Source: Trypanosoma brucei
Lineage: Eukaryota
NCBI GenBank assembly: GCA_000002445.1
Contig: CP000067.1
Span: 1,440,001-1,504,000, forward strand
Direction: 5' to 3'
Length of the DNA: 64,000 bases
A program made the translations under genes and the position numbers. The notes beneath the pieces are model-generated. The model saw only the letters and a list, made by a program, of their open reading frames with translations, was not told the origin of the DNA and did no database searches. Shown here one piece after another: positions 29,701 to 63,385 of the stretch (the stretch's first letter is position 1; every line of letters begins with the position of its first letter).

Positions 29701-30559
29701 CTAGTTTGGAGCGGCGGTCCGAGTTTCATCGTCTAACCCCGACGACGGAACATCACGCAGCAAAAGACAATCGCGATTTCTTGTGATTGCGTCGTTGCAT
29801 ATTCAACGCTCGCCAATGCCACGGTGTACATAGGTACGGAGCTGCCGCATTCTTTTTGTATACGGTTAACCGTGAGCCCCCATATCCCGCATTCCACGCC
29901 GATGTCGTCCACCTCAGCTTTTCACCCGGGTCCCATTCCCTATCAGGCTGAGAGAAACCAAGAACCAGCGGCGTGCCTCATACGCAAACCCTTCCGCTCC
30001 AACCATTATGGCATACCTGCAGGGTGCGGGAATCCCTGCCATGCCGGACTGCTGTTTGCTCTTCGCCGGTCCCCACCGTCGTACGAATATCCGGCTCAAT
30101 CTATCGTCACCCTCTGGGGCGGTGACCCGCAGGCCTAATGGAAAGAAGTCACTGGTGAGGCAAGGGGAAAGCTCGTAAAAGTATATATATTAATTTTTTT
30201 CCTTCAACGGGAAGTAGTATACGTAAAAGAAAACCTGCATTGCCACAAAGCCAGCACGCAGTTACTGTGCGGAGGTTGTGCCAATGAAAATGGGGTTGGG
30301 TATGCCCCCGGGGAAAATAAGTTGCGTGTGATGCGTAGATGGCAAAAGCGGCAATGTTCACAAGTCCTGCGCCATTTCCCTCTCTGGGGTCAAAGGTGAC
30401 CCATACTTAGGTCCAAGATGGAACCGACCACCGCGTATGGAAGGGTGATTTTCATAGTAAAAAGAATGAGGTGATTTCTATGCAGCTTATTTTCTTCCAC
30501 CACGTTGTTTGGAAAGACAGTGCAATAGCAGATGAGATTGCAGTGGAAGAAACAACTGT

Positions 30560-31200
30560 AGAATGACACACCTAATATGTAAAATTGATGTTTTGGTGGG
30601 AGACATAAAGCAGAAGCGTAACGAGGGATATGCTGCGCTCGAAGCTGGATTAGGGCCAAGCACGCGCAGGAGAAACTTTCTCGGTCACATCGAGTCTCTA
30701 CTAAAGAAGCGATCGCATGCCGGAATAAAAGAAAGCCCGCCCTTTAACAATTTCATATTCGCACCCCCGAACCAACTTGGCGAGACCGGTGGAACAGCCT
30801 CGCTCCCTGATAAGTGTTTCAGCAAATGTCGATTGTGCAACCGCCAAATTGATGGCGTTGAAAAGGGGAAACAATACAACGAAGCGCTTACCAATGAATT
30901 AAGCACTTCGTTGAAAACTCCCAAGGCCAAGGCAGAGAGAGTTCGCGATCCAGTGACATCCCTGAATTGTAACTTTATCGTCCACTGATAAGGATCAACC
31001 ATGAGTGATATAGTTAAGGTACACGAGTGGGCAGAAGTGGCAGACGCATGGGAAGGCTTTAAAAGATGCTGTGAAATCCCTCGTGTGCGCCACGGATGCT
31101 ATCAATGTGTTTTGTGTGAGCGTGGCACTCCCCGGAAATGTGACAAACTTTAAAAAACATATGGACAGACATGAGGGAGGTTCAAACCAGAAGCGATGAA
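30560..31200 (+). mobile_element. Degenerate retroelement (ingi/DIRE-like) remnant carrying broken C2H2 zinc-finger coding sequence
   Basis: Translations give CFSKCRLCNRQIDGVEKGKQYNEAL and CYQCVLCERGTPRKCDKL(stop)KKHMDRHE. These resemble the C-x2-C…H-x3-H fingers of the ingi-like element at 47.5-49.9 kb, for example LQCPYCPMNCTLKKFLTMH. The region is GC-rich, has no long ORF and carries multiple stops. Confidence 0.3.
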
Positions 31201-34200
31201 CAAAACGAGGCGAAGAAGCCTAGGAATAATCTGGGAGAGTGCAAGGAAATGCTCACAAGGCCCAAAGAACAACCAGTTACAAACTGGTATAAGTGACACA
31301 TTTGCCTCTATCACTATAGGAAGAAAGATTTGACCCTGCCATTGGGAAGTGGTGGAAAATGCGACACTCCAGTGGGAAGCAGTGAATATGGCGATGAAGG
31401 GATAAGACTGGGAGAAGGAAATGCACGAAGGTGCCTCTTGCGCACGAATACTGAGTTTCTGAAACACCAGCTAAAACGACGCGTAGAAACCCGCCGTCAA
31501 GGGTGCAAGGACAGGGCCACGAGACTGGAAGAAAGCGATGAAAATAGTTTCCGTGGAGAGGGTGGAAAAAAGGAACGCTAAAACGGCGGAGGAGCAAAGA
31601 AGAGAGACCATAATTTGCCCTTGCCCTACCAAAGCATACCCAACGTCGGTGTCGCCAAAGTCTCATACCTCCAAACTTCATCCATATAATAAAGAGGGGG
31701 CCACAACGGCCGAGGGCGCGGGGGAAAGGACCGCGGACGACAAGGATACCAGGGGCGTGGAACGCGAAAATACGGCAAGCAGCAAAGGTAGCGTTTTTCG
31801 GTTCCACCACTGCCATGAAACTTGTCGTAAGCATCCGCAACCTCGCCAATACGTTGAGTCCAAACGCCGGGAGGCCATGAAGACATCTTAAAAGCGGGGA
31901 AAAATTATGGGAAGTTCAGTGGAGACGATCAAAAGATGTAAGGGCGGGGAACCGTAGAGGTGTGGAAATTGAGGGGACAGCGGGGGAAAATGTCAGGTCA
32001 GAGGAATACGCCGCCGAACACGCTGAAATCCAAATGCGGAAGGGATTTTGTGACGACCCATACGGGAGGCAGAGAGAGGATACGGGAACAAATTACTACA
32101 AAATAACCATCGAAGCAATGAGAAATACGGTGGGGCTTACCAAAGAGGGCGTGGTCAACCTTCAGGTGCAACATACAGGACGTGCTTGCGTGGTCTGACA
32201 AGGCGGTGAAGGAACGTGAAATATATCCCTGACTTCCGACGAAACAAGAGGCAGCGATGGATATCACAAAGTTTCAAATAGGAGACCGAGGAGCATACAA
32301 CGCTGACATGGCGACATGGCGAAGGTCGACGAGCAATGTAAGCGCGGAGCATGACTGAACATTTGCATGGCAGAAAGGCTTCGTCAGACACAGATGCAGA
32401 AAGAAAATGATGCGGCAGAGGTTAAGGACCAAGTAAAACACGACACAGCATATGGGGGGAAATGTCAAGCAAGATCTGTTGTGTAATTTCTTTTTCAATA
32501 AAATTGGAAGTTATGTTGTGTGGACGGTGAGTATGATATGCGAGGAGGGCAGTTGCGGAAAGGCTGAATGAAAATGACTGCTGTTGTGCTCCGTCGGGCA
32601 AAGCCGCTGCTGGCTCAGAAGATATAGCAAAAGAATATCGTAAATTCATGAATAGCACATACAACCTCAAAGTATGCGGCAAGAATTCTGACGGCAAAGC
32701 CGCCACCAGCACGGTAAAAGACTGCAACCCTCAAAACCATACCACAGTTATGATATGATTTCCCGCCCAATATGACAGTATACTTTTTGACATGCAGGAC
32801 CTGAAGAAAAGGGAGATAATAGATGAGTAAAAGACAGTAAATCAAGAAGTTGAAGAAACAAAGGTGATAGTTGCTAGAAACACCTCACGAAAGCCGGAGA
32901 GCCTTCGCGGATTCAGTATGTCCTACTTGATGCAGGGGGCGGTAATCTAACGCACACACGGTAGCACGATCCTGGAATTGTCATCGCCCCAGGAACAACT
33001 ACGGATGGAGGCACAAAGAGGTGAAACATAACAACGGAAAGCAGGCGGCGTTCAGGGTACTATTTGAAACTCCTCAGACAAGCCAGACTTACGTGGTGCA
33101 AAAACAAAAAATAGTGCACAGTCGGGAAGGGAAGTGAAGGGAGGTTCGCAACAACGGAAGAACAGAATACCGAGAGACGATCAGGCACTTCCTCCAATAC
33201 AAGAAACTCGTGCAATTCATCATGATATAGCTTCCAGCATTCAGTTCAGAAGGACAGTTAAGCCACAAAACAACGGCCACATAGACACAGGCGAGAAACA
33301 GTAAAACCCAGAGGGTGACAAAACATCTCGTTGCCAAGCGACCGAAACAAACCGAAATGTTGTGCCACTAAACGGGGATTAAGGTTCACTCGGCACTAAA
33401 GAATATATGCAGGGTAGCAGGAACCTGCATACGAATACACATGAAGGTAGGGGGAACGTTCTACTACTTGCTTGACAATTCTGTGGCCAAGCTGCTGAAG
33501 CTGTTCTCAAGGAACTCGGCACATGGAGAGTAAATGTACAGGAAGAGGGGGGAAAAGTTTCTCTGGAAGTGGTTGTCCGTTTCGGGAGTCAAACGTTGCT
33601 TAGGGTTCTGGATCTTTGAATATTCTTTAGAGATTATGACGGTCGCAAGCGTAGGTATGTTCTTCCGCTGTACCCTGGTCTAGTGGTCAAGTAGCGTCCG
33701 CGTCACAGATAGTACAGGGATCGGTCCCCGCGGCCGGCGAGTATTTAGCTTACACTAAGGATGAATCTGCCTCAACGTGGCGCTAGGGTTCAGGAACAGA
33801 AAAGAAATAAACTGGGAAGTCAAATGTTCCATCCAAACGGCGGCCGCAACACCGGATCTGACGCGCCCGCTCCGTGGGGAGAGAACTATTACTAAGTATT
33901 CCACGGTCCAGCGCCCTGCTCTGGTGTGGGAACCCTAATCCCTTATACAACTTCCGTCCGGGGAGGCAGATGGATATGGTAAACATGGTTCAAACGCAAC
34001 GTGGGAGGATCGAACGGGCGCCAAATGGAGACCGACCCCCTAGACACACGCACATACGGTCACCCAGCCGTGGGTGTCAATTCTCCAAGAAAAAAACAGG
34101 TGGTTTTAGTGGGTAGAAATGACAATCTCCAGAGCTGACCCCCACACTACCACGTTATCGTGGCGTGGTGTGCGTAAATGCATTTTCTCTTTGCCCTCGG

Positions 34201-37029
34201 GTGGACCGACTGCATGGTCCTGACGGTTGCGCGAGAGAAAATCAAATGAAAAAAATTGCTTTGTTCTTTGCGGTGCTTACCGATTTTTGGAGAAGTGCGG
34301 GTGTTAGGCCTGCCTGGCCATGTGTTTGTTCCGTTTAGAATGGTTGCATATTTTGGCGACGTTGAAGAAGCTGAACGTGTGGAGTTCTGTTGAGTTATAT
34401 TCTCGCGAGTATGGTGTACCAGACAAGTTACTTCGTTTGAGGCAGTCCTAGAGGCAGGGTGCGAGTTTGGAAGAAACAATTCTGGAGAGACTGAGGGTAG
34501 GGGACGTTGTTTTTGAAGGTAATTTCTTATCTATATAAGCCTTTTGTTCGCCGAGTATGTACCGGATAAGCTTCGTCAATCTTGAAGGTATTTAACAACC
34601 GCGGTGAGCGAGCTGTGGTTATTTAAGAGACTATTTTCGAAATCTGACGAAAGATGTGCCGTTTCCTTCGTCATTTCCTAAATCGATCTCATGCTGTAGC
34701 ACCCATTTCATACTTCAAATAAATTTTAGACGCCGCAGAGGAATATTATCGATTATTGAAGATCAAAATCAAAATTATGGAAGTCACTGTAGAAATATCA
34801 GATGTAAGACTACCGTGAAGGTGTGGGTGTTGGAGTGCCATCAATTTAATGCAGAAGGGGCAGAACGATGCAAAAAAAAAAATGTTAAGCGGTAGGCTGT
34901 AGTATGACTCAGCTTTAGAAGCGACGGTAAAGCAAAATAATCTGGGGAGTGCGTTAGATTAGAATGTTTTGCAAATACACGACACGTAGTGACATCAAAC
35001 TTTGCACTACCAAAGAAAAAAAAATAATAATAATAACAAATTAACGGCTTATCAAAACTAAGCCAAATAGCCTAGCAACAACAGAAGGATATGCCTTGTA
35101 GACAAAACTTCAAACTTTAGACGTATAACCATATTGATAAGACATATTCTGAAGCTCCGTTACTTCCAAACGTGCAAGGTGCACTGAAGGGTTTAAAAAT
35201 CAAAAGTATGCGCCGCCTGGAGATGGTGGCTGTCCTGCCGATACTACGTTAGTTGGAATCGTTGGCTCACTGTGAGGTGGAAAGCCAACCAGAAGAAGCA
35301 AGCGGCGAATATAACGCAAACACATATGAAGGAGTGATCGCAACTAAACCAGCCTACCCAGATAAAGAAGTCTCTGAATGATACAGCAAAGAATACAAGG
35401 TTTATCTTGATGGACTAACAAGACAAACTTACATGAGACGCAACAACTGCCCGAGGAAACAGGAAGCCTAGAGTTCAAATAACACAACGAATAACAAAGT
35501 GGGCAAAGTGAACTGGCATGCCTCAACCAACTGCAAAGCGTAACTCATAAGGACTTTTCGAACGTACAGCTAGAGCTCAGAAAGCATGCTGTACCTTATG
35601 GCGCACTAATGGAACCAGGCAGCAAGGCGACGAGGTACGGCAAAGGCCGTCACAAGCTGCATGCTCAAACAAGATAAACATAAGAGATGCCAAGGGGATG
35701 GGAAATTCTTGTAAAGTGGATATGTCTTAGGGAGCTGTTGGCATGATCTCAGGCACTAGAAGCCGAGTACAAAGGGACTTGCAATCACTGTGTGGTAATT
35801 ATAGTTTCTCTTGTTTCGCCGGCGGCGACCAACTAACGGACCTGAGCAAAAAGTGTGTCGATGGAGGAACGCAACTCAACCAAATCCCCATCGCCAACAT
35901 CAGGGAGAGAAGCAGAGACGCCTTTCCAACAAAGTTGGGTCACCAATCCACCGTGGCTCATGTACTGAGTGCATTCATTTCACCATTATGCTAAAATGTT
36001 TCCATCATCCATTTTATAAACTATCAGAATTTGGATAGAAAATATGCTAAAGTTTTAATGTTTTTTTTTTGGGGGGAGTTCGTGAAACTGTTGCATTCTA
36101 ATCGAGCTCTTTAAGATTTGCTTTCGTCTATTCTCCTCTATTTTCGCTATGGTCGCATGGTTTGAGCTCAAAAATAAGATTCGGAGAAAATTAAAAACTC
36201 GTCGAAAAACGAAATTTCGGTGATGATGAACATGGGTTTCTACGGTGGAGTCGACCTTTTAACATGTTGAACATATGAAAAACACAACCATTCAGAGTGA
36301 CAATTTACGTGTTTGAATTATTTCTATTGGATTAAAAGTTTAATATTCACTCTCATTTTCGTTTTTGAAGGGAAATGTTTTTAGACTAAATCGTTGAGAA
36401 CTGAGATTTTTTTTCTATTGCCACATACATAATACCTAACAGTTATGGCTTAATTGGATGCTAAGGTTATATTTGTGTAAAATGGAATAACTTAATTCCA
36501 AAAAAGTCACGATGTGACACTATATACTTGCATACAACCATGTCCCGGGGTGAATAATTGACGGCTTTCCACTAACACTGGTGGGGAAACAACATGACAG
36601 CGTGCAAGAAAAAAATTATAAAAGAGACAAACCGCCAGCTCTTATTTTTTTAAATGCGGGGACTAAGGGTGACATGCCATGTAGCGTTCGGAAAAGCAGG
36701 GGTGTTACACGTTGTGTCACGAAACTTTACTGAAAACTACAACGCAAATATCGCTAAGATATGATAACGGCAAGCTGATTTCAATTCTCGTAGCCTTGTA
36801 TGTCACAAACGTTGCTGACGTCCCGTAAACATAACATCTCCTCAGGGACCCGTGTATTAAGACATCTTTGGTTAAGTTGTTGAATTTGTTGTTAGGACAA
36901 CCGCCGTCTATTGCAGAACCCCAAATTACATCTATCACCTACAAATAAAAAGCCAAGTTCCAACCATCACCAACAACGAAGATAAAGTCACAAAAACAGC
37001 TCAACACATCCACGAAAGGAAAGGCACTA

Positions 37030-38559
37030 ATGGAAAGTCGATCCGATACCAAAGGAACGTCGCACATAGCTGTTGCAGCAGCCGTTCCAGTATTATTCAT
37101 GACGCTGATGAGGTGCGGCATGGCGCAAACAATAACGGAACCGTCTTCGGACAAAGTAACAAACCTCTGTACAGAGGCCAAGTATACAGCCCATCTGGCA
37201 GATCACATCGTAGCGGCGGCAGAAGAGCCGGAGCGCGAAATATCCGACATGCAAATTTATGCAGAGGCATGGAATCTCCTTGCCGCCAGCACAAACCAAA
37301 CAGACAAGCGTGCCGCGACATATGCCCTTGCTGCGTACATGTCCGCCGCGGCGGCAAAAGCAAAGCAGCTGCAAAACGGGAAATACAAAGCAGCAGTCTT
37401 GGCCGCTACCTACCTGCAAAGGAGATCAGCGCTGACACGAACATTGCAAGCTATGCGTGTAAAAGGCAAGACGGCTGTGGGACAGTTCACTAAAAAGCAG
37501 GGCGAAGAGGCATCATGTTCACACAAGGAAACGCCGACTTTAAGCGACGAAGGGGATTGCGGGCGACAGGATAATGCCATCAACCATCCTGAGTCAATTG
37601 CCATAGATTTAAGGACAGCGACTCACATCAAACTGGTACATGGCAGTAAGCTAAGACCACTGGAGTTAACGCACGAAGCTGATGTAAGAGAGACGACACC
37701 ATCGGAGCAAGCGCAAGTGAAAGCCACAGGTTGCAAGGCCGTGCTAAGAAGCGACTTCTATGTTACATTCATAGCATCAACTACAAAAAAGGAAGACAAA
37801 ACTGGAGTAACAGCTATTAAGATATTCGCGGGCGACGATGCAAATACAAGTTGTGCTGAGCTCAAAGACGCCACGAAGAAATCAGAAAAGGATAACGACC
37901 TACTGATCAACAAAATCTGCACCTACATAACAAAACCCGATCCGCAGATTATAACCATATCCAGTTTGACGCCAGCCATGTTAGCAAACACAACGGCAGT
38001 CCAAGTGGCGTTCAGAAGCTTCGTTCATGCAGCAACCGGTAAAGCGCCAAGCGACGCCGAGATTGAAATGCAACTTCAAAAACTTTACGGAGGGGACAAG
38101 CAACACTTCAAAAGAGACTTCGTGACAATTCTGACAACAAAGAATATGACATACCACACGGGCTCAGGATTTGTAACTGAAACATTCCTTGATGCAGCTA
38201 AAAACAACCACGCCCACAAGGTGCTGATCTATCTAAAAGGTCAAAGAGCGGCAGCACAGGCAAAACAACCAAGGACAAACGAGAGTGAAATCAACGGCCC
38301 GGTCTGCGGAGGTGAGGGCCAAGAGGAGTGCAAATTGGATGAAAAGAAAGACCCGGAGAAACCGAACGGAACTCAAATGCGGAAATGGCCTAAAGCACTC
38401 CAGTGGATGATCACACGACAAGGAGGAAATTGCAAAACAATACAGCAAGAAGATTGTAAAGAAGACTGTACATGGGATGAGGGAGCTTGTGACGGCGCAG
38501 TTGGCATTTCTGCTTCGATGAATATTTCTCTGTTCATGGCATTTTTGCTTCTAGCATAA
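37030..38559 (+). CDS. Variant surface glycoprotein-like gene with an A-type N-terminal domain and an atypical C-terminal domain (VSG / VSG-related family), copy A
   Basis: The 509-aa ORF has a signal peptide (…AVAAAVPVLFMTLMRCGMAQ) and Ala-rich long-helix segments (AEAWNLLAASTNQTDKRAATYALAAYMSAAAAKAKQ). The Cys-rich C-terminal module is CGGEGQEEC…CKTIQQEDCKEDCTWDEGAC. The hydrophobic GPI-type tail is SASMNISLFMAFLLLA. It ends short and is not the canonical 17- or 23-aa T. brucei VSG GPI signal. Confidence 0.8.
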   Translation: MESRSDTKGTSHIAVAAAVPVLFMTLMRCGMAQTITEPSSDKVTNLCTEAKYTAHLADHIVAAAEEPEREISDMQIYAEAWNLLAASTNQTDKRAATYALAAYMSAAAAKAKQLQNGKYKAAVLAATYLQRRSALTRTLQAMRVKGKTAVGQFTKKQGEEASCSHKETPTLSDEGDCGRQDNAINHPESIAIDLRTATHIKLVHGSKLRPLELTHEADVRETTPSEQAQVKATGCKAVLRSDFYVTFIASTTKKEDKTGVTAIKIFAGDDANTSCAELKDATKKSEKDNDLLINKICTYITKPDPQIITISSLTPAMLANTTAVQVAFRSFVHAATGKAPSDAEIEMQLQKLYGGDKQHFKRDFVTILTTKNMTYHTGSGFVTETFLDAAKNNHAHKVLIYLKGQRAAAQAKQPRTNESEINGPVCGGEGQEECKLDEKKDPEKPNGTQMRKWPKALQWMITRQGGNCKTIQQEDCKEDCTWDEGACDGAVGISASMNISLFMAFLLLA

Positions 38560-39779
38560 AAACTTATTGGAAATACTTTATTGTAGCAAACATTAATTTT
38601 TTTCTGGAAATATCTTAATGTAGTGGAATATGCATTTTTATGGAAAGATCTTATTATACGAAACCGTATCTTTGTTGAATTATCTTGGATAAATTTACAT
38701 TCATCTTGGAAATATTTTATACAATTCTTAAATGTGCGTTTGTATTTCAACGCTTTTTGCAAACATGTGAAGACTTTGAGAGATCTTTTTTGTTGTTGTA
38801 CAAATTTGATGTTTGAATGTAAAGTGATATGTTGATGGAGTGTCAAAAGTGGGTGCCATTAGGATTTTTACTATTATGGTTTATTCAATTAATTTTATGT
38901 TTACCTTTGAAAATGTAAATATATGCAAATCTTCTCTAGTGTTGTGGCCGGGGAGTATAATGTAGTATGGTAACGGTTTACGAATGAGAAATGAGTGCTA
39001 TTCTGAAATTTTCTGTTTCGGTTTATTTGGTGTATCGTATGGATGTTAGTCAAGGTTATAAAAGTAATGGTAAGAGTGGTTGGGGTGAGGATTAGGATGT
39101 TGGTATATTTGAATAACAAGGTCTTCCAAAGGAGGAAGAGAGATAGACAAGGCAGTGAAGGGCTGCAGAGGTGTTGTGGCATGCATGGAAATGATATAGA
39201 TCTCTAAGGGAGTATCAGGTATGATTTTACTCGGGAAGGGGTTGCTGCTCATACTTGTGATTATATATTTCCTGAAGCGGTCAAATGTTTCACAACTTCC
39301 ATTAGAATAAAGTTTAGGAGAAGCAATAGGATGAGGGAAGCCCCCGCTGAATTGTTTGGCGGATATACAGTTTGATGAGTGGAAGGTTCGTTGTAGAAGC
39401 ACGCGTGCACGTCTCGCCCAATTGGTGAGAGAGCAGTAATGGCCGGATGCATTTGCCGTGAGTAACAACCCCAACAATGGATACAAAGGAGTTATTGTTC
39501 ATCATCGAGGTGTGACAACAGTAGTGGTGCATATATTTGTCGGCCCCTCGGATATGGAAAAGGGATCAAACGGTGCCGCTGGCATTGGAGGTTTTGTTGG
39601 TAATTCCTTAGAAATATCTTGCTGAAATTTGTTGAAGTTATTGAGACAACTATCTTTTCTATGTTACCCTACTATTTCATGTATTGCTTACTGGTAACAA
39701 CATAAAGTCCAATTTTTATCAACAGGGAAGTCAAGGACACCAAGGCAACGCAGCAACGTGGAAAAAGCTGGAGGAACTA

Positions 39780-41306
39780 ATGGAAAGTCGACCCGATACC
39801 AAAGGAATGTGCCACGCGACAGTGGCAGCAACTGTTCCAGTATTATTCATGACGCTGATGAGGTGCGGCATGGCGCAAACAGTAACGGAACCGTCTTCGG
39901 ACAAAGTAACAAACCTCTGTACAGAGGCCAAGTATACGGAATATTTGGCGAGTCGAATCGTAGCGGTAGCAGAGAGGCAGGAGCGCGAAATATCCGACAT
40001 GCAAATTTATTCAGAGGCATGGAATCTCCTTGCCGCCAGCACAAACCAAACAGACAAGCGTGCCGCGACATATGCCCTTGCTACGTACATGTCCACCGCG
40101 GCGGAAACAGCAAGGCGGGCACACGCTGGAAAATACAAAGCAGCAGTGGCAACTGCGAAGTTGCTACACAGGAGGTCGGCGCTAACGCGTACGTTGCTAA
40201 CGATGAGAATCCGGGGAAAGACAATAGTTGGAATAAGCAAAGAGGCCAACGGCATAGGAATATGCCCTGGTGAAGCAACACCAACATTAAGCGGCGACAG
40301 TAGTTGCGCGCACCGAACCAATGACAGCAACCAACCAGAAGGTATTGCTGTGAACTTGAAGGCAGCGACGCACATAAAATTGCTAAATAGCAGTGCACTA
40401 AGACCTCGGGGGTTAACCCATCTAGTTGAGATAAAAGAAACGAAGTGGCCAGCAAGCAGAGAAGCATTAGTCGAGAGGTGCGGGGGCTTGTTGGGAGGTG
40501 ACCATTATGTTAAATTCGAAGCATCAACCACAGGAGAAGACAGCAAAATCATAGTAGAGCCGATTAAGATATTTGAGGGTGACGATGCGGAGAAAAACTG
40601 CGCTGTCGTACAGAAAGAATCTATGAAATCAGAAAAGGACAATGATCTACTGATCAACAAAATATGCACCTACATAACAATACTCGACCCGCAGATTATA
40701 ACCATATCCAGTTTGACGCCTGCCATGTTAGCAAACACGAGCACAGTCCAAATGGCGTTCAAAAGCTTCGTTCATGCAGCAACCGGTAAAGCACCTAGCG
40801 ACGGCGAAATCGAGTTGCAACTTAAGAGCCTTTACGGTGGGGACAAGCAAAACTTCACCAGAGACTTCGTAAAAATTCTGTGGACGAAGAACGTGACATA
40901 CCACACGGGCGCAGGATTCAAAACTGAGACGCTCCTTGATGCGGTTAGAAACAAAAACGCACAGAGGGCTCTAATCTATCTGGAAGATCAAAGACCAGCA
41001 GAGGAGTCAAAACAGACACAAACGGACGAGAGTGAAATCAACGGCCCGGTCTGCGGAGGTGAGGGCCAAGAGGAGTGCAAATTGGATGAAAAGAAAGACC
41101 CGGAGAAACCGAACGGAACTCAAATGCGGAAATGGCCTAAAGCACTCCAGTGGATGATCACACGACAAGGAGGAAATTGCAAAACAATACAGCAAGAAGA
41201 TTGTAAAGAAGACTGTACATGGGATGAGGGAGCTTGTGACGGCGCAGTTGGCATTTCTGCTTCGATGAATATTTCTCTGTTCATGGCATTTTTGCTTCTA
41301 GCATAA
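39780..41306 (+). CDS. VSG-like gene, copy B
   Basis: The ATG at 39780 (MESRPDTKGMCHATVAATVPVLFMTLMRCGMAQ…) is homologous to the start of copy A. The track ORF starts 32 codons upstream at 39684, but that stretch has no homology. The last ~95 aa and the 3' flank are identical to copies A and C. Confidence 0.8.
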   Translation: MESRPDTKGMCHATVAATVPVLFMTLMRCGMAQTVTEPSSDKVTNLCTEAKYTEYLASRIVAVAERQEREISDMQIYSEAWNLLAASTNQTDKRAATYALATYMSTAAETARRAHAGKYKAAVATAKLLHRRSALTRTLLTMRIRGKTIVGISKEANGIGICPGEATPTLSGDSSCAHRTNDSNQPEGIAVNLKAATHIKLLNSSALRPRGLTHLVEIKETKWPASREALVERCGGLLGGDHYVKFEASTTGEDSKIIVEPIKIFEGDDAEKNCAVVQKESMKSEKDNDLLINKICTYITILDPQIITISSLTPAMLANTSTVQMAFKSFVHAATGKAPSDGEIELQLKSLYGGDKQNFTRDFVKILWTKNVTYHTGAGFKTETLLDAVRNKNAQRALIYLEDQRPAEESKQTQTDESEINGPVCGGEGQEECKLDEKKDPEKPNGTQMRKWPKALQWMITRQGGNCKTIQQEDCKEDCTWDEGACDGAVGISASMNISLFMAFLLLA

Positions 41307-42526
41307 AAACTTATTGGAAATACTTTATTGTAGCAAACATTAATTTTTTTCTGGAAATATCTTAATGTAGTGGAATATGCATTTTTATGGAAAGATCTTA
41401 TTATACGAAACCGTATCTTTGTTGAATTATCTTGGATAAATTTACATTCATCTTGGAAATATTTTATACAATTCTTAAATGTGCGTTTGTATTTCAACGC
41501 TTTTTGCAAACATGTGGAAATTTTGAGAGATCTTTTTTGTTGTTGTACAAATTTGATGTTTGAATGTAAAGTGATATGTTGATGGAGTGTCAAAAGTGGG
41601 TGCCATTAGGATTTTTACTATTATGGTTTATTCAATTAATTTTATGTTTACCTTTGAAAATGTAAATATATGCAAATCTTCTCTAGTGTTGTGGCCGGGG
41701 AGTATAATGTAGTATGGTAACGGTTTACGAATGAGAAATGAGTGCTATTCTGAAATTTTCTGTTTCGGTTTATTTGGTGTATCGTATGGATGTTAGTCAA
41801 GGTTATAAAAGTAATGGTAAGAGTGGTTGGGGTGAGGATTAGGATGTTGGTATATTTGAATAACAAGGTCTTCCAAAGGAGGAAGAGAGATAGACAAGGC
41901 AGTGAAGGGCTGCAGAGGTGTTGTGGCATGCATGGAAATGATATAGATCTCTAAGGGAGTATCAGGTATGATTTTACTCGGGAAGGGGTTGCTGCTCATA
42001 CTTGTGATTATATATTTCCTGAAGCGGTCAAATGTTTCACAACTTCCATTAGAATAAAGTTTAGGAGAAGCAATAGGATGAGGGAAGCCCCCGCTGAATT
42101 GTTTGGCGGATATACAGTTTGATGAGTGGAAGGTTCGTTGTAGAAGCACGCGTGCACGTCTCGCCCAATTGGTGAGAGAGCAGTAATGGCCGGATGCATT
42201 TGCCGTGAGTAACAACCCCAACAATGGATACAAAGGAGTTATTGTTCATCATCGAGGTGTGACAACAGTAGTGGTGCATATATTTGTCGGCCCCTCGGAT
42301 ATGGAAAAGGGATCAAACGGTGCCGCTGGCATTGGAGGTTTTGTTGGTAATTCCTTAGAAATATCTTGCTGAAATTTGTTGAAGTTATTGAGACAACTAT
42401 CTTTTCTATGTTACCCTACTATTTCATGTATTGCTTACTGGTAACAACATAAAGTCCAATTTTTATCAACAGGGAAGTCAAGGACACCAAGGCAACGCAG
42501 CAACGTGGAAAAAGCTGGAGGAACTA

Positions 42527-44053
42527 ATGGAAAGTCGACCCGATACCAAAGGAATGTGCCACGCGACAGTGGCAGCAACTGTTCCAGTATTATTCATGAC
42601 GCTGATGAGGTGCGGCATGGCGCAAACAGTAACGGAACCGTCTTCGGACAAAGTAACAAACCTCTGTACAGAGGCCAAGTATACGGAATATTTGGCGAGT
42701 CGAATCGTAGCGGTAGCAGAGAGGCAGGAGCGCGAAATATCCGACATGCAAATTTATTCAGAGGCATGGAATCTCCTTGCCGCCAGCACAAACCAAACAG
42801 ACAAGCGTGCCGCGACATATGCCCTTGCTACGTACATGTCCACCGCGGCGGAAACAGCAAGGCGGGCACACGCTGGGAAATACAAAGCAGCAGTGGCAAC
42901 TGCGAAGTTGCTACACAGGAGGTCGGCGCTAACGCGTACGTTGCTAACGATGAGAATCCGGGGAAAGACAATAGTTGGAATAAGCAAAGAGGCCAACGGC
43001 ATAGGAATATGCCCTGGTGAAGCAACACCAACATTAAGCGGCGACAGTAGTTGCGCGCACCGAACCAATGACAGCAACCAACCAGAAGGTATTGCTGTGA
43101 ACTTGAAGGCAGCGACGCACATAAAATTGCTAAATAGCAGTGCACTAAGACCTCGGGGGTTAACCCATCTAGTTGAGATAAAAGAAACGAAGTGGCCAGC
43201 AAGCAGAGAAGCATTAGTCGAGAGGTGCGGGGGCTTGTTGGGAGGTGACCATTATGTTAAATTCGAAGCATCAACCACAGGAGAAGACAGCAAAATCATA
43301 GTAGAGCCGATTAAGATATTTGAGGGTGACGATGCGGAGAAAAACTGCGCTGTCGTACAGAAAGAATCTATGAAATCAGAAAAGGACAATGATCTACTGA
43401 TCAACAAAATATGCACCTACATAACAATACTCGACCCGCAGATTATAACCATATCCAGTTTGACGCCTGCCATGTTAGCAAACACGAGCACAGTCCAAAT
43501 GGCGTTCAAAAGCTTCGTTCATGCAGCAACCGGTAAAGCACCTAGCGACGGCGAAATCGAGTTGCAACTTAAGAGCCTTTACGGTGGGGACAAGCAAAAC
43601 TTCACCAGAGACTTCGTAAAAATTCTGTGGACGAAGAACGTGACATACCACACGGGCGCAGGATTCAAAACTGAGACGCTCCTTGATGCGGTTAGAAACA
43701 AAAACGCACAGAGGGCTCTAATCTATCTGGAAGATCAAAGACCAGCAGAGGAGTCAAAACAGACACAAACGGACGAGAGTGAAATCAACGGCCCGGTCTG
43801 CGGAGGTGAGGGCCAAGAGGAGTGCAAATTGGATGAAAAGAAAGACCCGGAGAAACCGAACGGAACTCAAATGCGGAAATGGCCTAAAGCACTCCAGTGG
43901 ATGATCACACGACAAGGAGGAAATTGCAAAACAATACAGCAAGAAGATTGTAAAGAAGACTGTACATGGGATGAGGGAGCTTGTGACGGCGCAGTTGGCA
44001 TTTCTGCTTCGATGAATATTTCTCTGTTCATGGCATTTTTGCTTCTAGCATAA
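42527..44053 (+). CDS. VSG-like gene, copy B', an exact duplicate of copy B
   Basis: The protein is identical to that of 39780-41306. It is part of a 2,747-bp tandem duplication. Confidence 0.8.
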   Translation: MESRPDTKGMCHATVAATVPVLFMTLMRCGMAQTVTEPSSDKVTNLCTEAKYTEYLASRIVAVAERQEREISDMQIYSEAWNLLAASTNQTDKRAATYALATYMSTAAETARRAHAGKYKAAVATAKLLHRRSALTRTLLTMRIRGKTIVGISKEANGIGICPGEATPTLSGDSSCAHRTNDSNQPEGIAVNLKAATHIKLLNSSALRPRGLTHLVEIKETKWPASREALVERCGGLLGGDHYVKFEASTTGEDSKIIVEPIKIFEGDDAEKNCAVVQKESMKSEKDNDLLINKICTYITILDPQIITISSLTPAMLANTSTVQMAFKSFVHAATGKAPSDGEIELQLKSLYGGDKQNFTRDFVKILWTKNVTYHTGAGFKTETLLDAVRNKNAQRALIYLEDQRPAEESKQTQTDESEINGPVCGGEGQEECKLDEKKDPEKPNGTQMRKWPKALQWMITRQGGNCKTIQQEDCKEDCTWDEGACDGAVGISASMNISLFMAFLLLA

Positions 44054-45238
44054 AAACTTATTGGAAATACTTTATTGTAGCAAACATTAATTTTTTTCTG
44101 GAAATATCTTAATGTAGTGGAATATGCATTTTTATGGAAAGATCTTATTATACGAAACCGTATCTTTGTTGAATTATCTTGGATAAATTTACATTCATCT
44201 TGGAAATATTTTATACAATTCTTAAATGTGCGTTTGTATTTCAACGCTTTTTGCAAACATGTGGAAATTTTGAGAGATCTTTTTTGTTGTTGTACAAATT
44301 TGATGTTTGAATGTAAAGTGATATGTTGATGGAGTGTCAAAAGTGGGTGCCATTAGGATTTTTACTATTATGGTTTATTCAATTAATTTTATGTTTACCT
44401 TTGAAAATGTAAATATATGCAAATCTTCTCCGGTGTTGTGGCCGGGGAGTATAATGTAGTATGGTAACGGTTTACGAATGAGAAATGAGTGCTATTCTGA
44501 AATTTTCTGTTTCGGTTTATTTGGTGTATCGTATGGATGTTAGTCAAGGTTATAAAAGTAATGGTAAGAGTGGTTGGAGTGACGATTAGGATGTTGGTAC
44601 ATTTGAATAACAAGGTCTTCCAAGGGAGGAAGAGATATGTATAAAGTACTGAAGGGCTGCAGAGGTGTTGTGTTAGGCATGATTGTGCACGGGAAGGAGT
44701 TGCTGCCGAAGCTTCTGATATACATGTGTTTCCAGAAACGATCAAATGCTGCGGAGCTTACGTGGGAAGAAAGTTTCGGAAGAGTTATGGGATGAGGGAA
44801 ATTCCCACTGCATTGTTTGAGCAGATTCACAACATGATAAGTGGAAGGTTGGTTGGAGAAGTGCGCAGGTACGCCACACCCAGTTGGCAAGAGATTGCAA
44901 TAGTCGGGTGCATGCCGGGAGTGATGACCCCACTGATAGTCAGGTCGCTAATAACGCTGAGGTTTGGAAAAAGCACACCTGAATTGATTTATCGGTGTAT
45001 CGAAGATCGAAAACATGATTAAGGCTCCCCAGTTACTGCATTCCCTCAAGGGGTTGCCGTTAAAAATATTTTTGTGCAAACTGTTTAAGTTATTATTGGG
45101 ACAACCGCTCTCTATTGCGGAACCACAAATTTCATCTATGACATACCTATAAATAAAAAGCCAAGTTCCAATCATCATCAACAACGAAGATAAAGGCACA
45201 AAGGCAACGAAACACATTACACGGAGGGAAAGGAGCCG

Positions 45239-46768
45239 ATGCAAGTTCAACGCACTACCAAAGAAGTGTTGCACAAAGCTGTTGCAGCAGCCGTGCCCGT
45301 GTTATTCATGACGCTGATGAGGTGCGGCATGGCGCAAACAGTAACGGAACCGTCTTCGGACAAAGTAACAAACCTCTGTACAGAGGCCAAGTATACAGCC
45401 CATCTGGCAGATCACATCGTAGCGGCGGCAGAAGAGCCGGAGCGCGAAATATCCGACATGCAAATTTATGCAGAGGCATGGAATCTCCTTGCAGCCAGCA
45501 CAAACCAAACAGACAAGCGTGCCGCGACATATGCCCTTGCCACGTACATGTCCACTGCGGCGGCAAAAGCAAAGCAGCTGCAAAACGGGAAATACAAAGC
45601 AGCAGTCTTGGCCGCTACCTACCTGCAAAGGAGATCAGCGCTGACACGAACATTGCAAGCTATGCGTGTAAAGGGACAGTCAGGAGCGGGACAAGTCACT
45701 AACCGACAAGGCGTCATCTCATCATGTTCACACAAGGAAACACCGACGTTAAGCGACGAAGGGGATTGCGGGCGACAAGGCAGTGATGCCAACCATCCAG
45801 AATCAATTGCCGTAAATTTAAGGACAGCGACTCACCTCAAACTGTTAGACAGCAGCAGGCTAAGACCGCTAGCGTTAAATCACTTAGCCGAAGTAGAAGG
45901 AACAGCGCCACCAGCAAAAACGGAAGTACAAGCCGAAGGCTGCAAGGCTGTGATAAGCATTGGCTATTATGCTAAATTCACAGCATCGACAAAAGAAAGT
46001 GACGACAACAGTGAAGTCAAAGCCATTAAGATATTCGCGGGTGACAATGCAAGTACAAATTGCGCTCTTCTGCACAACGCCGAAAGGAAATCAGAAAAGG
46101 ATAACGACCTACTGATCAACAAAATATGCAACTACATAAACAAACCTGATCCTCAGATAATAACCATATCCAATTTGACGCCTGCCATGTTAGCAAACAC
46201 GAGCACAGTCCAAATGGCGTTCAAAAGCTTCGTTCATGCAGCAACCGGTAAAGCACCTAGCGACGGCGAAATCGAAAACCAGCTTAAGAGCCTTTACGGA
46301 GGGGATGAGGTGACATTTACCAATGACTTCATAAAAATTCTGTGGACGAAGAACGTGACGTACCACACTGGCTCAGGATTCGTAACTGAGACATTTCTTG
46401 ATGCAGCTAAAAACGAAAACGCGCACAAGGTGCTCATCTATCTAAAAGGTCAAAGAGCGGCAGCACAGGCAAAACAACCAAGGACAAACGAGAGTGAAAT
46501 CAACGGCCCGGTCTGCGGAGGTGAGGGCCAAGAGGAGTGCAAATTGGATGAAAAGAAAGACCCGGAGAAACCGAACGGAACTCAAATGCGGAAATGGCCT
46601 AAAGCACTCCAGTGGATGATCACACGACAAGGAGGAAATTGCAAAACAATACAGCAAGAAGATTGTAAAGAAGACTGTACATGGGATGAGGGAGCTTGTG
46701 ACGGCGCAGTTGGCATTTCTGCTTCGATGAATATTTCTCTGTTCATGGCATTTTTGCTTCTAGCATAA
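45239..46768 (+). CDS. VSG-like gene, copy C, mosaic relative of copies A and B
   Basis: The 509-aa ORF shares N-terminal and C-terminal blocks with copy A and internal blocks with copy B, for example LTPAMLANTSTVQMAFKSFVHAATGKAPSDGEIE. Its 5' flank is homologous to that of copy A. Confidence 0.8.
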   Translation: MQVQRTTKEVLHKAVAAAVPVLFMTLMRCGMAQTVTEPSSDKVTNLCTEAKYTAHLADHIVAAAEEPEREISDMQIYAEAWNLLAASTNQTDKRAATYALATYMSTAAAKAKQLQNGKYKAAVLAATYLQRRSALTRTLQAMRVKGQSGAGQVTNRQGVISSCSHKETPTLSDEGDCGRQGSDANHPESIAVNLRTATHLKLLDSSRLRPLALNHLAEVEGTAPPAKTEVQAEGCKAVISIGYYAKFTASTKESDDNSEVKAIKIFAGDNASTNCALLHNAERKSEKDNDLLINKICNYINKPDPQIITISNLTPAMLANTSTVQMAFKSFVHAATGKAPSDGEIENQLKSLYGGDEVTFTNDFIKILWTKNVTYHTGSGFVTETFLDAAKNENAHKVLIYLKGQRAAAQAKQPRTNESEINGPVCGGEGQEECKLDEKKDPEKPNGTQMRKWPKALQWMITRQGGNCKTIQQEDCKEDCTWDEGACDGAVGISASMNISLFMAFLLLA

Positions 46769-47519
46769 AAACTTATTGGAAATACTTTATTGTAGCAAAC
46801 ATTAATTTTTTTCTGGAAATATCTTAATGTAGTGGAATATGCATTTTTATGGAAAGATCTTATTATACGAAACCGTATCTTTGTTGAATTATCTTGGATA
46901 AATTTACATTCATCTTGGAAATATTTTATACAATTCTTAAATGTGCGTTTGTATTTCAACGCTTTTTGCAAACATGTGGAAATTTTGAGAGATCTTTTTT
47001 GTTGTTGTACAAATTTGATGTTTGAATGTAAAGTGATATGTTGGTGGAATGTCGAAAATGGTTGCTATTTAGAATATTTTTGCTATTATGGTTTATTCGA
47101 AGAAATTTATGTTTACCTTTGAAGATGTGAAAATGTTTAAATGTTTTCAAATGTTTTTGACTTGTGGGTATAACGTGGTAAAGTGATAGGGGTGTGAAAA
47201 ATGAGTGTGATTATGAAAACTTGCCATTTTGGTTTATTTTTTTGTAATAGATATTAAGAGTAGTTTAAGGTTATGATATTAATAGCAGTATAGTAATAGT
47301 GTGTGTGCCATATAAGTGCACATACTAACATTATGGTAAGAGTGGTGGTGCAGAACGACTGGAGACAAAATAGAAGCAGTTAAGCTGATGCCAAGGGCAC
47401 AGTGGGAGTTAGCAAGTGAGTGGGAGAGGAAGAGGACGAGGAGGATATTATTAAAACAAAAGCAGAAACACAGGTAGATGGAGAGAAAAGGTAATGAAAT
47501 ATGCGCAGTTTTTTTCATT

Positions 47520-49880: not shown

Positions 49881-50217
49881 CGGCATCTCTAGGGGTACTA
49901 TTACTAGTTAACATATTTATGACAGTTTAATAAGATGATTCATTTTCATACTCTATTTGCCCATTATTTTGAAAAAATGTGCCACTTTCATAACAAAATG
50001 TTATACGTAAAATTCTAAATAATTTCTGTAGTTTATGCATTTTAATTAAATGCTTTTCAAATATATCATATTTTACCAAATATAGATAACTCTCTGTTAA
50101 TGGCAAATTTTGTGAAATAGAGCAAAATTCCTTAAAATAGAAATCCCACAAAATCAGCAGCGATTATAGCAAAATTTTATTTACAAAGAAAATTGAATTT
50201 TTGCAAGCATTATTTTC

Positions 50218-51567: not shown

Positions 51568-52479
51568 TTTCGTTTAATTACTTGTGCTTTGCTTTGTTTA
51601 GGGATCTTTGTTGGGAAATGGCTAGGTCGATTTTAAGTTGCTACTTATGTTGGTTTTTTAACTATAGCATTTCTCGGCTGACCACTATGGTCTTTGTGCA
51701 TCGGCTGCGCTTCTCCTTTGCCGCAGACAGCCTCTAAACCGTTATGTCGTGTTCGGATTTTTCGGTTTTCTGTTGTCCGTCGGCCCTGACTACGCCTTAT
51801 TTTTCGTTGCGGCCAGTTACAACCTATCATGCATATAGGTCCATGTTTGAAATATATTATTTTTTATATAACTAAAAGGATAATTTCAAAAATCCTCCAT
51901 TTCAACTCCTTTTTGGAATTTAACCACTTCTTATCCCAAATAAATTTTATTTATTCTATTAATCAGTATTGTCACATGACCTTAGTTTCTAACGTAGGGT
52001 CCCTCCATCAAGAAAAAAAAACCACCGTCTCTATTACCATTTTTACAGTATTATATCTTCATTTTTGAGTACTATAGGGTCATAACGAGCTACTACTTCT
52101 CATAATGACGCATCATTTCCTTTTGTGGTCCGCTGCGTTGTCGCATATTCTGTCATTACATACTGTTATTTTCGTTCCATTTTTTACTTTTATTTCTACT
52201 CCTTTCACTTAAGATAAGGTGGAGGGTCCATTTTCCTTGTACACTGCATTCTGGTTTATACATGATACCCCTTCATCGCCTTCTTGTGTATGATAATGAC
52301 TATTATCATATCTGTGTCTTAAGCTGCGTACATTCGATCTCCTTTTTCCTCTCTATGTTTCTGCTTCCCTTTAATAATAGTATTACTCGTGCCCTCACAC
52401 ACTCTCATACTAACTTACTTACTCTCATTTCGTCCTTGTCATTTCTGTAAGTGCTTGTGTTTTGTTCATCAATTTGGTC

Positions 52480-63310: not shown

Positions 63311-63385
63311 TCTATATCTATATCTATATTTATATCTATATCTATATCTATATCTATATTTATATCTATATCTATATCTATATCC
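63311..63385. repeat. (CTATAT)n / (TATATC)n hexamer microsatellite with interspersed TTTATA variants
   Basis: Seen directly in the sequence. Confidence 0.9.

What the first reader, a model, noticed from the sequence alone, without database searches (positions are those of the whole stretch)
37030..47100. Tandem cluster of four VSG-like genes with an identical non-canonical C-terminal domain and 3' flank, and no 70-bp repeats
Four plus-strand genes (A, B, B', C) share the last ~95 codons and ~480 bp of 3' flank. The shared coding tail is …ESEINGPVCGGEGQEECKLDEKKDPEKPNGTQMRKWPKALQWMITRQGGNCKTIQQEDCKEDCTWDEGACDGAVGISASMNISLFMAFLLLA. The C-terminal domain has six Cys and a short hydrophobic tail. 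That tail does not look like the canonical T. brucei VSG GPI signals. The minus-strand VSGs in this same window do have canonical signals (…SFVINKAPLLLAFSLALLNF). The 3' UTRs lack a recognisable 16-mer TGATATATTTTAACAC. The ~1.1-kb spacers contain no 70-bp repeat. This looks like a distinct VSG-related subfamily organised as a head-to-tail tandem array rather than classical array VSGs. Whether these proteins are GPI-anchored, expressed, or a separate surface family is open.
Basis: partly seen in the sequence, partly recalled or inferred. Interest (0 to 1): 0.75.

Follow-up and report, generated by a model that had tools for sequence, protein, structure and literature searches.

The report
Known atypical VSG gene cluster
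The four tandem genes are real, but they are the already annotated and published "atypical VSG" cluster Tb927.4.5400-5430 on chromosome 4 of Trypanosoma brucei TREU927: ordinary VSGsur-like coat-protein genes with a damaged C-terminal domain, lacking the usual VSG control elements and weakly transcribed in all life stages.

Summary
There are four plus-strand ORFs of 508-509 aa with a 2.75-kb period. A 491-nt block (281 nt of coding tail plus 209-210 nt of 3' flank) is identical in all four. The tail has six Cys and a non-canonical hydrophobic end. There is no 16-mer and no 70-bp repeat in the spacers.

The feature is not new. The window is T. b. brucei TREU927 chr4:1,440,001-1,504,000, and the genes are Tb927.4.5400/5410/5420/5430, annotated "VSG, atypical". 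Jensen et al. 2009 described this tandem cluster, its position beside the right subtelomeric array, a Pol II start site upstream, and low mRNA in all life stages. Dakovic et al. 2023 placed two of the proteins in VSG class A1a (VSGsur-like).

New detail from this work:
- The C-terminal domain passes Pfam PF10659. It is a two-lobe domain that lost 15 residues, taking it from 8 to 6 Cys.
- The domain and tail occur only with this N-terminal family, which is present in five strains or subspecies.
- Family members are mosaics of each other, with dN/dS of 0.2-0.5.
- T. equiperdum has one copy at the same locus.
- A 70-bp-repeat relic lies just past the last gene.

Most likely these are Pol II-transcribed, low-abundance VSG-like genes rather than expression-site donors.

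The parts
26769..37029 (.). Divergent strand-switch region of about 10 kb without ORFs. It lies between the last core polycistron (minus strand) and the cluster, and is the reported site of Pol II initiation.
   Evidence: Core genes lie on the minus strand up to 26768. No ORF with a Pfam hit lies in 26.8-37 kb. The region is 93% identical to the same locus in T. b. gambiense and T. equiperdum. The Pol II start site comes from Jensen 2009, citing Siegel 2009.
37030..38559 (+). Gene A = Tb927.4.5400 (XP_844686, Q580P7), atypical VSG, 509 aa.
   Evidence: The chromosome coordinate 1,477,030 in Jensen 2009 supplementary file 8 gives a window offset of 1,440,000.
38560..39779 (+). Spacer 1: the shared 3' flank, a vestige of the 70-bp-repeat flanks, and the B-type 5' flank.
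   Evidence: It is identical to spacer 2. It has only weak similarity (E about 0.01) to the canonical inter-VSG region.
39780..41306 (+). Gene B = Tb927.4.5410 (XP_844687), atypical VSG, 508 aa.
   Evidence: The Pfam PF10659 score is 27.8 bits.
41307..42526 (+). Spacer 2, identical to spacer 1.
42527..44053 (+). Gene B' = Tb927.4.5420 (XP_844688). Its protein is identical to B, with 1 nt difference.
   Evidence: The start coordinate 1,482,527 is given.
44054..45238 (+). Spacer 3. The first ~380 nt match spacers 1 and 2 at the same 2747-nt offset; identity then declines. The last ~150 nt carry the A-type 5' flank.
45239..46768 (+). Gene C = Tb927.4.5430 (XP_844689, Q580P4), atypical VSG, 509 aa.
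   Evidence: The start coordinate 1,485,239 is given. It was modelled as class A1a in Dakovic 2023.
46488..46978 (+). The 491-nt block (C-terminal domain coding plus 3' UTR) that is identical in all four copies. The other copies are at 38279-38769, 41026-41516 and 43773-44263. This is a gene-conversion tract that starts at the boundary between the N- and C-terminal domains.
   Evidence: dS is 0-0.018 here, against up to 1.4 in the centre of the genes.
47255..47359 (+). Degenerate single 70-bp-repeat relic downstream of gene C.
   Evidence: nhmmer gives E 2.5e-5 across the window. It lies within a 356-nt stretch homologous to a canonical inter-VSG region (E 1e-20). The sequence is shown. The same relic follows the T. 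equiperdum paralogue (L003 2654-2721).

Best explanation
Identity (essentially certain). This is the annotated cluster Tb927.4.5400-5430. It comprises four tandem 'atypical VSG' genes at the junction between the chromosome 4 core and the right-hand subtelomeric VSG array of T. b. brucei TREU927.

Protein (shown). Each gene encodes four parts:
- a hydrophobic N-terminal signal-like segment;
- a VSGsur-like (class A1a) A-type N-terminal domain;
- a two-lobe VSG C-terminal domain, in which the first lobe has lost 15 residues and two Cys while the second four-Cys lobe is intact;
- a family-specific 21-residue hydrophobic end.

That end is most plausibly a GPI signal with the attachment site at the Asp of C-D-G-A. 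This is the position of the Asp in the canonical C-K-D-S-S (inferred).

Origin (shown). The array grew by tandem duplication of a 2.75-kb unit from a single gene, as is still seen in T. equiperdum. The B/B' duplication is very recent. The 3' end of all four copies has been homogenised by gene conversion.

How it works (inferred, with published expression data). The genes lack an upstream 70-bp repeat and the 3'-UTR 16-mer, and they sit first in a short plus-strand unit leaving a divergent strand-switch region. They are therefore transcribed by RNA polymerase II at a low, stage-independent level. They make, at most, a minor VSG-like surface protein that is not part of the switching repertoire. 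They are poor donors for duplication into expression sites.
For: Identity:
- 100% match to XP_844686-844689 on the 1,590,432-bp TREU927 chromosome.
- Gene start coordinates match Jensen 2009 supplementary file 8 exactly, with an offset of 1,440,000.

Published description:
- Jensen 2009 describes the tandem cluster, its position on the opposite strand beside the subtelomeric array, a Pol II start site upstream, and similar mRNA in all stages.
- Signals are about 1,500-7,500 with a BF/PF ratio of about 1.

N-terminal domain:
- A family profile matches VSGsur (PDB 6z79/6z7c) at E 3e-11 over positions 7-436.
- phmmer against 1.84 billion representatives finds ordinary VSGs at 23-34% identity, down to E 3.6e-40, and these have canonical tails.
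- Dakovic 2023 models Q580P4, Q580P5, Q38G13 and VSG485 as class A1a.

C-terminal domain:
- PF10659 scores 32.9 bits against a cut-off of 21.4.
- Both lobes match the canonical lobe motif.
- Paralogues P0010, P0012 and P0015 carry the extra CSGECTWEGNEEKGRC segment, giving 8 Cys.

Missing cis elements.

Evidence against decay:
- All copies are intact.
- The tail is conserved in TREU927, Lister 427, EATRO1125, T. equiperdum and T. b. gambiense.
- dN/dS is 0.2-0.6 in nearly all segments, including the C-terminal domain plus tail. The exceptions are the 35-codon signal-peptide segment of A vs C (1.49) and the C-terminal domain of Teq4 vs Tbg (0.84, from nine substitutions).

Closed family:
- In two searches of 5.8 billion proteins and one of 1.84 billion representatives, every full-length relative has this C-terminal domain.
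- No protein with another N-terminal domain carries it.

Origin:
- There is one copy at the syntenic site in T. equiperdum.
- B and B' units differ at 1 of about 2.7 kb compared.
- Two peptides assigned to Tb927.4.5410 were reported in patient plasma.
Against: - RNA polymerase II transcription and the start site were not tested here; they come from the literature. Jensen 2009 words the region as 'convergent', whereas the gene orientation in the window makes it divergent.
- The microarray signals lie near or below the bottom quartile of all genes (about 4,500). RNA-seq of tsetse stages of another strain gives almost no reads for Tb927.4.5430 (base mean 2.4). The transcripts could therefore be noise.
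- No protein-level or surface evidence was found. The bloodstream surface-proteome supplements of Gadelha 2015 contain none of the four 927 gene identifiers; that study used strain 427.
- GPI anchoring is only inferred, because no predictor was available.
- Family members exchange segments like archive VSGs, and a 70-bp relic survives. Use as mosaic donors is therefore not excluded.
Confidence: 0.6

Rival explanations
1. The genes are silent archive VSGs. They belong to the antigenic-variation reservoir and are used late in infection as donors of N-terminal segments for mosaic VSGs. The odd C-terminal domain and 3' UTR would be replaced by those of the expression-site resident, and the observed mRNA would be incidental.
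For: - The N-terminal class is canonical A1a.
- The genes lie directly beside the subtelomeric array.
- The centre of the N-terminal domain is hypervariable (36-77% identity) between conserved ends.
- Segments are clearly exchanged among members. For example, the T. equiperdum chr4 copy is 100% identical to EATRO1125 1125.195 in alignment columns 205-300 but only 54-76% identical elsewhere in the N-terminal half.
- A 70-bp relic and an inter-VSG-like downstream region show descent from an array cassette.
- Recent work shows that the Cys-rich lobes of the C-terminal domain are dispensable for a working VSG (PMC12226131).
Against: - No 70-bp repeat lies upstream of any copy, and there is no 16-mer.
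- No database protein joins a family N-terminal domain to a canonical C-terminal domain, or the reverse.
- The locus is positionally conserved in three subspecies.
- The tail that would be discarded under this model is conserved, with dN/dS of about 0.45-0.57.
Confidence: 0.22
2. The genes are non-functional relics. An old VSG cassette became stranded next to a Pol II start site, was duplicated by unequal crossing-over, and is transcribed as noise. The proteins would not mature.
For: - The first lobe of the C-terminal domain is truncated, leaving 6 Cys.
- mRNA levels are very low.
- Copy number varies between strains.
- The genes were not seen in the bloodstream surface proteome.
Against: - All four ORFs are intact, as are those of at least ten relatives in five strains or subspecies.
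- dN/dS is below 1 in nearly every segment tested.
- The signal-like N-terminus and C-terminal tail are conserved.
- The apparent truncation in T. b. gambiense is an assembly-gap artefact.
Confidence: 0.13
3. One reading: a previously unrecognised VSG-related surface family, separate from VSGs.
For: The tail, flanks and N-terminal/C-terminal linkage are all family-specific.
Against: - The genes are already annotated and published.
- Both domains fall within known VSG families.
- The N-terminal domain is A-type, whereas the named VR genes resemble T. congolense VSGs, and that species has no a-type VSG.
Confidence: 0.05

Closest known systems
[quoted passage not shown] 2009, BMC Genomics 10:482)
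   Same: Identical sequence and coordinates. The tandem arrangement, the position beside the chr4 right subtelomeric array and the stage-independent mRNA are all already reported.
   Different: Nothing differs. This work adds the origin of the C-terminal domain by deletion, the 491-nt conversion tract, the 70-bp relic, synteny and copy number in other subspecies, and the closed mosaic nature of the family.
Class A1a VSGs (VSGsur, PDB 6z79/6z7c; Zeelen 2021; classification of Dakovic 2023)
   Same: The N-terminal domain is homologous over its full length (E 3e-11). Q580P4 and Q580P5 from this cluster are listed in that class.
   Different: Compared with class A1a VSGs that carry canonical C-terminal domains and GPI signals, here the first C-terminal lobe is truncated, the tail is family-specific, and the 16-mer and 70-bp repeats are missing.
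VR (VSG-related) genes of T. brucei (Marcello & Barry 2007)
   Same: Both lie at strand-switch regions, lack 70-bp repeats and are expressed in bloodstream and procyclic forms.
   Different: VR genes resemble T. congolense VSGs, and that species has no a-type VSG. This family is A-type with a T. brucei-type C-terminal domain. Jensen 2009 lists it as atypical VSG rather than VR.
Fam1 (Tb927.6.1310 array; Jackson 2013)
   Same: [quoted passage not shown]
   Different: Fam1 is derived from b-type VSG, is 347 aa long and lacks the VSG C-terminal domain.
VSG-derived proteins with other functions (ESAG6/7 transferrin receptor, SRA, TgsGP)
   Same: They show that an A-type VSG fold can be reused for a non-variant function.
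   Different: No ligand or function is known for this family. Those proteins are truncated or restructured VSGs expressed from expression sites or specific loci.

Membership tests
Canonical T. brucei VSG (switching repertoire) | A-type or B-type VSG N-terminal domain | tested here: met
   The family profile matches VSGsur at E 3e-11 over 430 positions. phmmer hits to ordinary VSGs reach E 3.6e-40. Pfam PF00913 scores only 10.9-18.3 bits, below the 22.1 cut-off. My own AlphaFold model was too poor to use (pLDDT 39).
Canonical T. brucei VSG (switching repertoire) | C-terminal domain with one or two structured lobes of four Cys each (4 or 8 Cys) | tested here: not met
   The domain has 6 Cys. The first lobe retains 2 Cys after a 15-residue deletion relative to P0010/P0015, and the second lobe is intact. 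The domain still passes PF10659 at 32.9 bits against a 21.4 cut-off.
Canonical T. brucei VSG (switching repertoire) | Conserved GPI signal class (for example ...SNSFVI...LLF or ...DSSF/ILVNKKF...) | tested here: not met
   The tail is GAVGISASMNISLFMAFLLLA. Canonical tails are seen in the window VSG at 52813-54327 and in distant relatives. The tail is hydrophobic and C-terminal, so GPI addition is plausible, but it was not predicted with a dedicated tool.
Canonical T. brucei VSG (switching repertoire) | 16-mer TGATATATTTTAACAC in the 3' UTR | tested here: not met
   No match with up to 3 mismatches in 37-47 kb. Positive controls were found in the minus-strand VSGs.
Canonical T. brucei VSG (switching repertoire) | One or more 70-bp repeats upstream of the gene | tested here: not met
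   None lies upstream of any of the four genes. There is one degenerate relic downstream of gene C at 47255-47359. Three positive controls were found on the minus strand.
Canonical T. brucei VSG (switching repertoire) | Expressed as the single coat protein from a telomeric expression site | not testable with these tools
   The published microarray shows low mRNA in both bloodstream and procyclic forms, which is unlike an expressed VSG.
'Atypical VSG' annotation class (VSGdb / GeneDB) | Intact ORF whose C-terminal domain lacks the full set of 4 or 8 Cys and/or whose GPI signal is unconvincing | tested here: met
   The definition is given in the VSGdb paper. The ORFs are intact, with 6 Cys and a non-canonical tail. 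The source annotation says 'VSG, atypical'.
VR (VSG-related) genes | Chromosome-internal position at a strand-switch region, without 70-bp repeats | tested here: met
   The cluster lies first after the divergent strand-switch region at 26.8-37 kb, at the core/subtelomere border. It has no upstream 70-bp repeat. The definition is quoted.
VR (VSG-related) genes | [quoted passage not shown] | tested here: not met
   The N-terminal domain is A-type, class A1a. Jackson 2013 states that VR genes resemble T. congolense VSGs and that T. congolense has no a-type VSG.

The most novel reading that the evidence does not exclude
The family is a closed, recombining set of about 3-6 genes per genome. It has its own C-terminal domain, tail and flanks, is positionally conserved in T. 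b. brucei, T. b. gambiense and T. equiperdum, and is under purifying selection. On the most novel reading, it is a VSG-derived, non-variant surface protein with a function of its own, for example a receptor or host-factor binder in the manner of the transferrin receptor, SRA or TgsGP. It would be made from a Pol II unit in every life stage. The hypervariable centre of the N-terminal domain would then be a diversified binding or exposed surface.
Probability: 0.2. Interest if true: 0.55.

Novelty: already known. Interest (0 to 1): 0.2.

Why it matters
As found, this is a correct re-discovery of an annotated and published gene cluster, so it changes little.

It has some residual value as a clean natural example of a VSG that has lost each canonical cis element while keeping an intact ORF that is under selection. 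The lost elements are the 70-bp repeat, the 16-mer and part of the C-terminal domain.

If such genes make a mature surface protein from a Pol II unit, this would bear on two questions. The first is how VSG-derived proteins acquire non-variant functions. The second is how strict the GPI-signal and C-terminal-domain requirements really are. On the second point, recent work already shows that the Cys lobes are dispensable.

Tried and rejected
- AlphaFold2 on the 13-sequence family alignment gave mean pLDDT 39 and pTM 0.34. I judged it unusable and ran no fold search. I could not deepen the alignment, because only window proteins and homologous-protein hits may be submitted.
- A word-indexed search with the 92-aa C-terminal domain alone returned 'no candidate', although exact matches exist in the database. 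This is a tool limitation, not evidence. Exclusivity of the domain was instead inferred from the exhaustive representative search and the profile search.
- blastn of the 556-nt shared 3' block against the rest of the window found nothing significant. The canonical-VSG control also matched only itself, so the test does not discriminate.
- Pfam found nothing on stop-to-stop ORFs in the strand-switch region (26.8-37 kb) or in 47.8-51.6 kb. I could not confirm my impression that 47.8-49.9 kb is an ingi/DIRE remnant.
- The Gadelha 2015 surface-proteome supplements contain none of the four gene identifiers. The Siegel 2010 and Tinti 2019 supplements are not held.
- Marcello & Barry 2007, Cross 2014 and Weirather 2012 are not held. 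I therefore could not assign the C-terminal domain formally to type 1-6.
- TREU927 itself is not indexed in the look-up of encoding contigs, so the context of the TREU927 paralogue Q38G13 was examined only through its T. equiperdum counterpart, L003.
- I considered that positive selection drives the variable centre of the genes. Nei-Gojobori dN/dS there is 0.32-0.45, and dS itself varies from 0 to 1.4 along the gene. Segmental exchange explains this pattern better.
Full report
**What is there**

The region holds four plus-strand ORFs:
- A, 37030-38559, 509 aa
- B, 39780-41306, 508 aa
- B', 42527-44053, same protein as B, 1 nt different
- C, 45239-46768, 509 aa

At the DNA level the four copies are identical for 491 nt. 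This runs from 281 nt before the end of the stop codon to about 209 nt after it. Only three differences occur up to +275. Beyond that, C diverges but stays alignable. A, B and B' remain identical for more than 620 nt. The B and B' units differ at a single base across the 2.7 kb I compared.

**Cis elements**

The VSG 16-mer is absent from 37-47 kb even with three mismatches allowed. It is found downstream of the minus-strand VSGs at 61167, 52735, 60145 and 50053.

Using the window's own 70-bp repeats as nhmmer queries, I recovered three minus-strand repeats at 52.5, 56.1 and 59.9 kb. None lies in the spacers or upstream of A.

One plus-strand relic lies at 47255-47359, about 490 nt after C's stop (E 2.5e-5). 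It sits inside a 356-nt stretch homologous to a canonical inter-VSG region (E 1e-20). The internal spacers keep only the flanks of this element.

**Identity**

Gene A is 100% identical to XP_844686. [quoted passage not shown]

Supplementary file 8 of Jensen et al. 2009 lists these starts:
- Tb927.4.5400 at 1,477,030
- Tb927.4.5420 at 1,482,527
- Tb927.4.5430 at 1,485,239
- Tb927.4.5460 at 1,492,813

These equal window positions 37030, 42527, 45239 and 52813 plus 1,440,000. The window is therefore chr4:1,440,001-1,504,000.

**Surroundings**

- 1-26.8 kb: core genes on the minus strand. These are two PH-domain kinases, PP4R3, CFAP43 and a biotin carboxylase.
- 26.8-37 kb: no convincing ORFs.
- 37-47 kb: the cluster.
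- About 50 kb onwards: the minus-strand subtelomeric VSG array.

By orientation, the cluster is the first and only content of a short plus-strand unit. That unit leaves a divergent strand-switch region and converges on the array.

**What is already published**

- Jensen et al. 2009 describe 'Tb927.4.5400, Tb927.4.5420 and Tb927.4.5430, along with a 4th gene identical to Tb927.4.5420'. [quoted passage not shown] They place it downstream of a strand-switch region with an RNA polymerase initiation site, with similar expression in all stages.
- The signals are about 1,500-7,500, with a BF/PF ratio of about 1. That is around or below the bottom quartile of genes (about 4,500).
- The T. b. gambiense genome paper discusses such VSG islands. 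It mentions a T. b. brucei segmental duplication of an atypical VSG.
- Dakovic et al. 2023 list Q580P4 (gene C), Q580P5, Q38G13 (a paralogue) and VSG485 (a Lister 427 relative) among AlphaFold models of class A1a, the VSGsur-like class.
- Eyford et al. 2013 list two peptides assigned to Tb927.4.5410 in plasma from T. b. rhodesiense patients.
- RNA-seq of tsetse stages of another strain shows almost no reads for Tb927.4.5430.

**The protein**

A profile of the family matches VSGsur over nearly the whole N-terminal domain (E 3e-11). An exhaustive phmmer search of 1.84 billion representatives finds 26 proteins. Those outside the family whose sequences I read (11 of them, including P0017, P0024, P0032 and P0036) are ordinary VSGs at 23-34% identity, several with canonical tails such as ...SNSFVIHKATHLFAFFLI or ...DSSFILNKKLALMVSAFVAFPF.

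The C-terminal 92 residues alone score 32.9 bits on PF10659, where the cut-off is 21.4. The last four Cys (CKTIQQEDCKEDCTWDEGAC) align with the canonical lobe CTGKEQKDCKDGCKWEDNKC.

Relatives P0010, P0012 and P0015 carry an extra CSGECTWEGNEEKGRC segment, which gives two complete four-Cys lobes. The chr4 genes have lost 15 residues and two Cys from the first lobe. That loss, together with the unusual tail, is what the 'atypical' label means.

The tail GAVGISASMNISLFMAFLLLA is hydrophobic and lies at the extreme C-terminus. It follows C-D at the position where canonical VSGs have C-K-D followed by the signal. Asp is therefore the likely attachment site. This is inference, because no GPI predictor was available.

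**The family**

Two word-indexed searches of 5.8 billion proteins found 14 clusters, from these sources:
- TREU927: the four chr4 genes plus Q38G13
- Lister 427: VSG 438, 485, 353 and fragment 1767
- EATRO1125: six entries
- T. equiperdum
- T. b. gambiense

Every full-length member has the same C-terminal domain and tail. No protein with a different N-terminal domain carries them. The N-terminal and C-terminal parts are therefore strictly linked. This contrasts with the reported free combination of N- and C-terminal types in VSGs generally.

Members are mosaics of each other. The T. equiperdum chr4 copy is 100% identical to EATRO1125 1125.195 in alignment columns 205-300 but only 54-76% identical in columns 0-205. 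EATRO1125 1125.195 and 1125.4121 are 100% identical in columns 0-140 but 53% in columns 205-300.

Between the chr4 copies, dS runs from 0 at the 3' end to 1.4 in the centre, with dN/dS of 0.2-0.6 in nearly all segments. Across strains the C-terminal domain plus tail gives mostly 0.43-0.57. The pattern points to segmental exchange under purifying selection rather than decay.

**Synteny**

T. b. gambiense DAL972 (near the end of its chr4 assembly) and T. equiperdum share the upstream 10 kb at 93% identity. T. equiperdum has one copy where TREU927 has four. The 'truncated' DAL972 gene is an artefact of a 100-N assembly gap, and the 3' part with the full tail lies beyond the gap. A T. equiperdum contig with the 8-Cys paralogue has homologous 5' and 3' flanks, the same downstream 70-bp relic and no 16-mer. 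The unit that moved between loci therefore included these flanks.

**Interpretation**

Identity is settled.

For mechanism, I favour (0.6) a Pol II-transcribed, low-level, stage-independent VSG-like gene set outside the switching repertoire. Four observations support this:
- the missing 70-bp repeats and 16-mer;
- the position at a start-site region;
- the published expression pattern;
- the closed linkage of the N-terminal and C-terminal parts.

Rivals are use as mosaic donors in the archive (0.22), non-functional relics (0.13), and a truly new family (0.05, refuted as to novelty).

**Verdict**

Its interpretation is partly right. The feature is already known, so interest is low.

Noticed in passing
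window 16393-18612 (-), stop codon at 17797-17799: A biotin carboxylase (acyl-CoA carboxylase alpha-like) gene is split by an in-frame TGA inside the ATP-grasp domain (...VILE*YVMHPRHIE...). The upstream ORF carries Biotin_carb_N plus CPSase_L_D2 positions 2-86. The downstream ORF carries positions 91-208 plus Biotin_carb_C and the biotinyl domain. It could be a pseudogene, a strain polymorphism or a sequencing error.
   Followed up: partly
L001 (T. b. gambiense DAL972 chr4, FN554967.1) 11148-11250: The DAL972 orthologue annotated as a 364-aa truncated atypical VSG plus a 237-aa fragment is broken by a run of 100 N. Part of the gene is repeated on both sides of the gap, and there is a frameshift before it. 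The intact 3' part, with the full family tail, follows the gap. Copy number in DAL972 is therefore uncertain (one or more).
   Followed up: yes
window 26769-37029: About 10 kb without convincing ORFs lies between the last core gene and the cluster. It is purine-rich on the plus strand from about 30 kb and 93% identical to T. b. gambiense and T. equiperdum. By gene orientation it is a divergent strand-switch region, whereas Jensen 2009 calls it 'convergent' while also reporting a transcription start there.
   Followed up: partly
window 38373-38846, 41120-41593, 43867-44340 (-): A 157-aa antisense ORF recurs in three of the units, overlapping the gene's 3' end and its 3' flank. The sequence is AT-rich and of low complexity, so the ORF is probably spurious. 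It was not tested.
   Followed up: no
window 47784-49907 (-): A run of broken minus-strand ORFs carries CxxC...H...H spacing at the convergent end of the cluster's unit. There are no Pfam hits. It is conserved in T. equiperdum and T. b. gambiense, and a weak RVT_1 gene lies further downstream in T. equiperdum. It is possibly a degenerate retroelement, but this is unconfirmed.
   Followed up: partly
window 50221-51573 (-): A VSG-like reading frame is broken into three frames. Its start resembles a VSG N-terminus and its later part resembles the conserved end of an N-terminal domain. A 16-mer-like site with 3 mismatches lies at 50053. It is probably the first pseudogene of the subtelomeric array.
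   Followed up: no
window 1877-3199 (-) and 25473-26768 (-): Two similar protein kinases with C-terminal PH domains (440 and 431 aa) bracket the core gene block. They may be paralogues.
   Followed up: no
window 147-199 and 63311-63384: Two microsatellites: (AAT) x 17.7 and (TCTATA) x 12.3.
   Followed up: no
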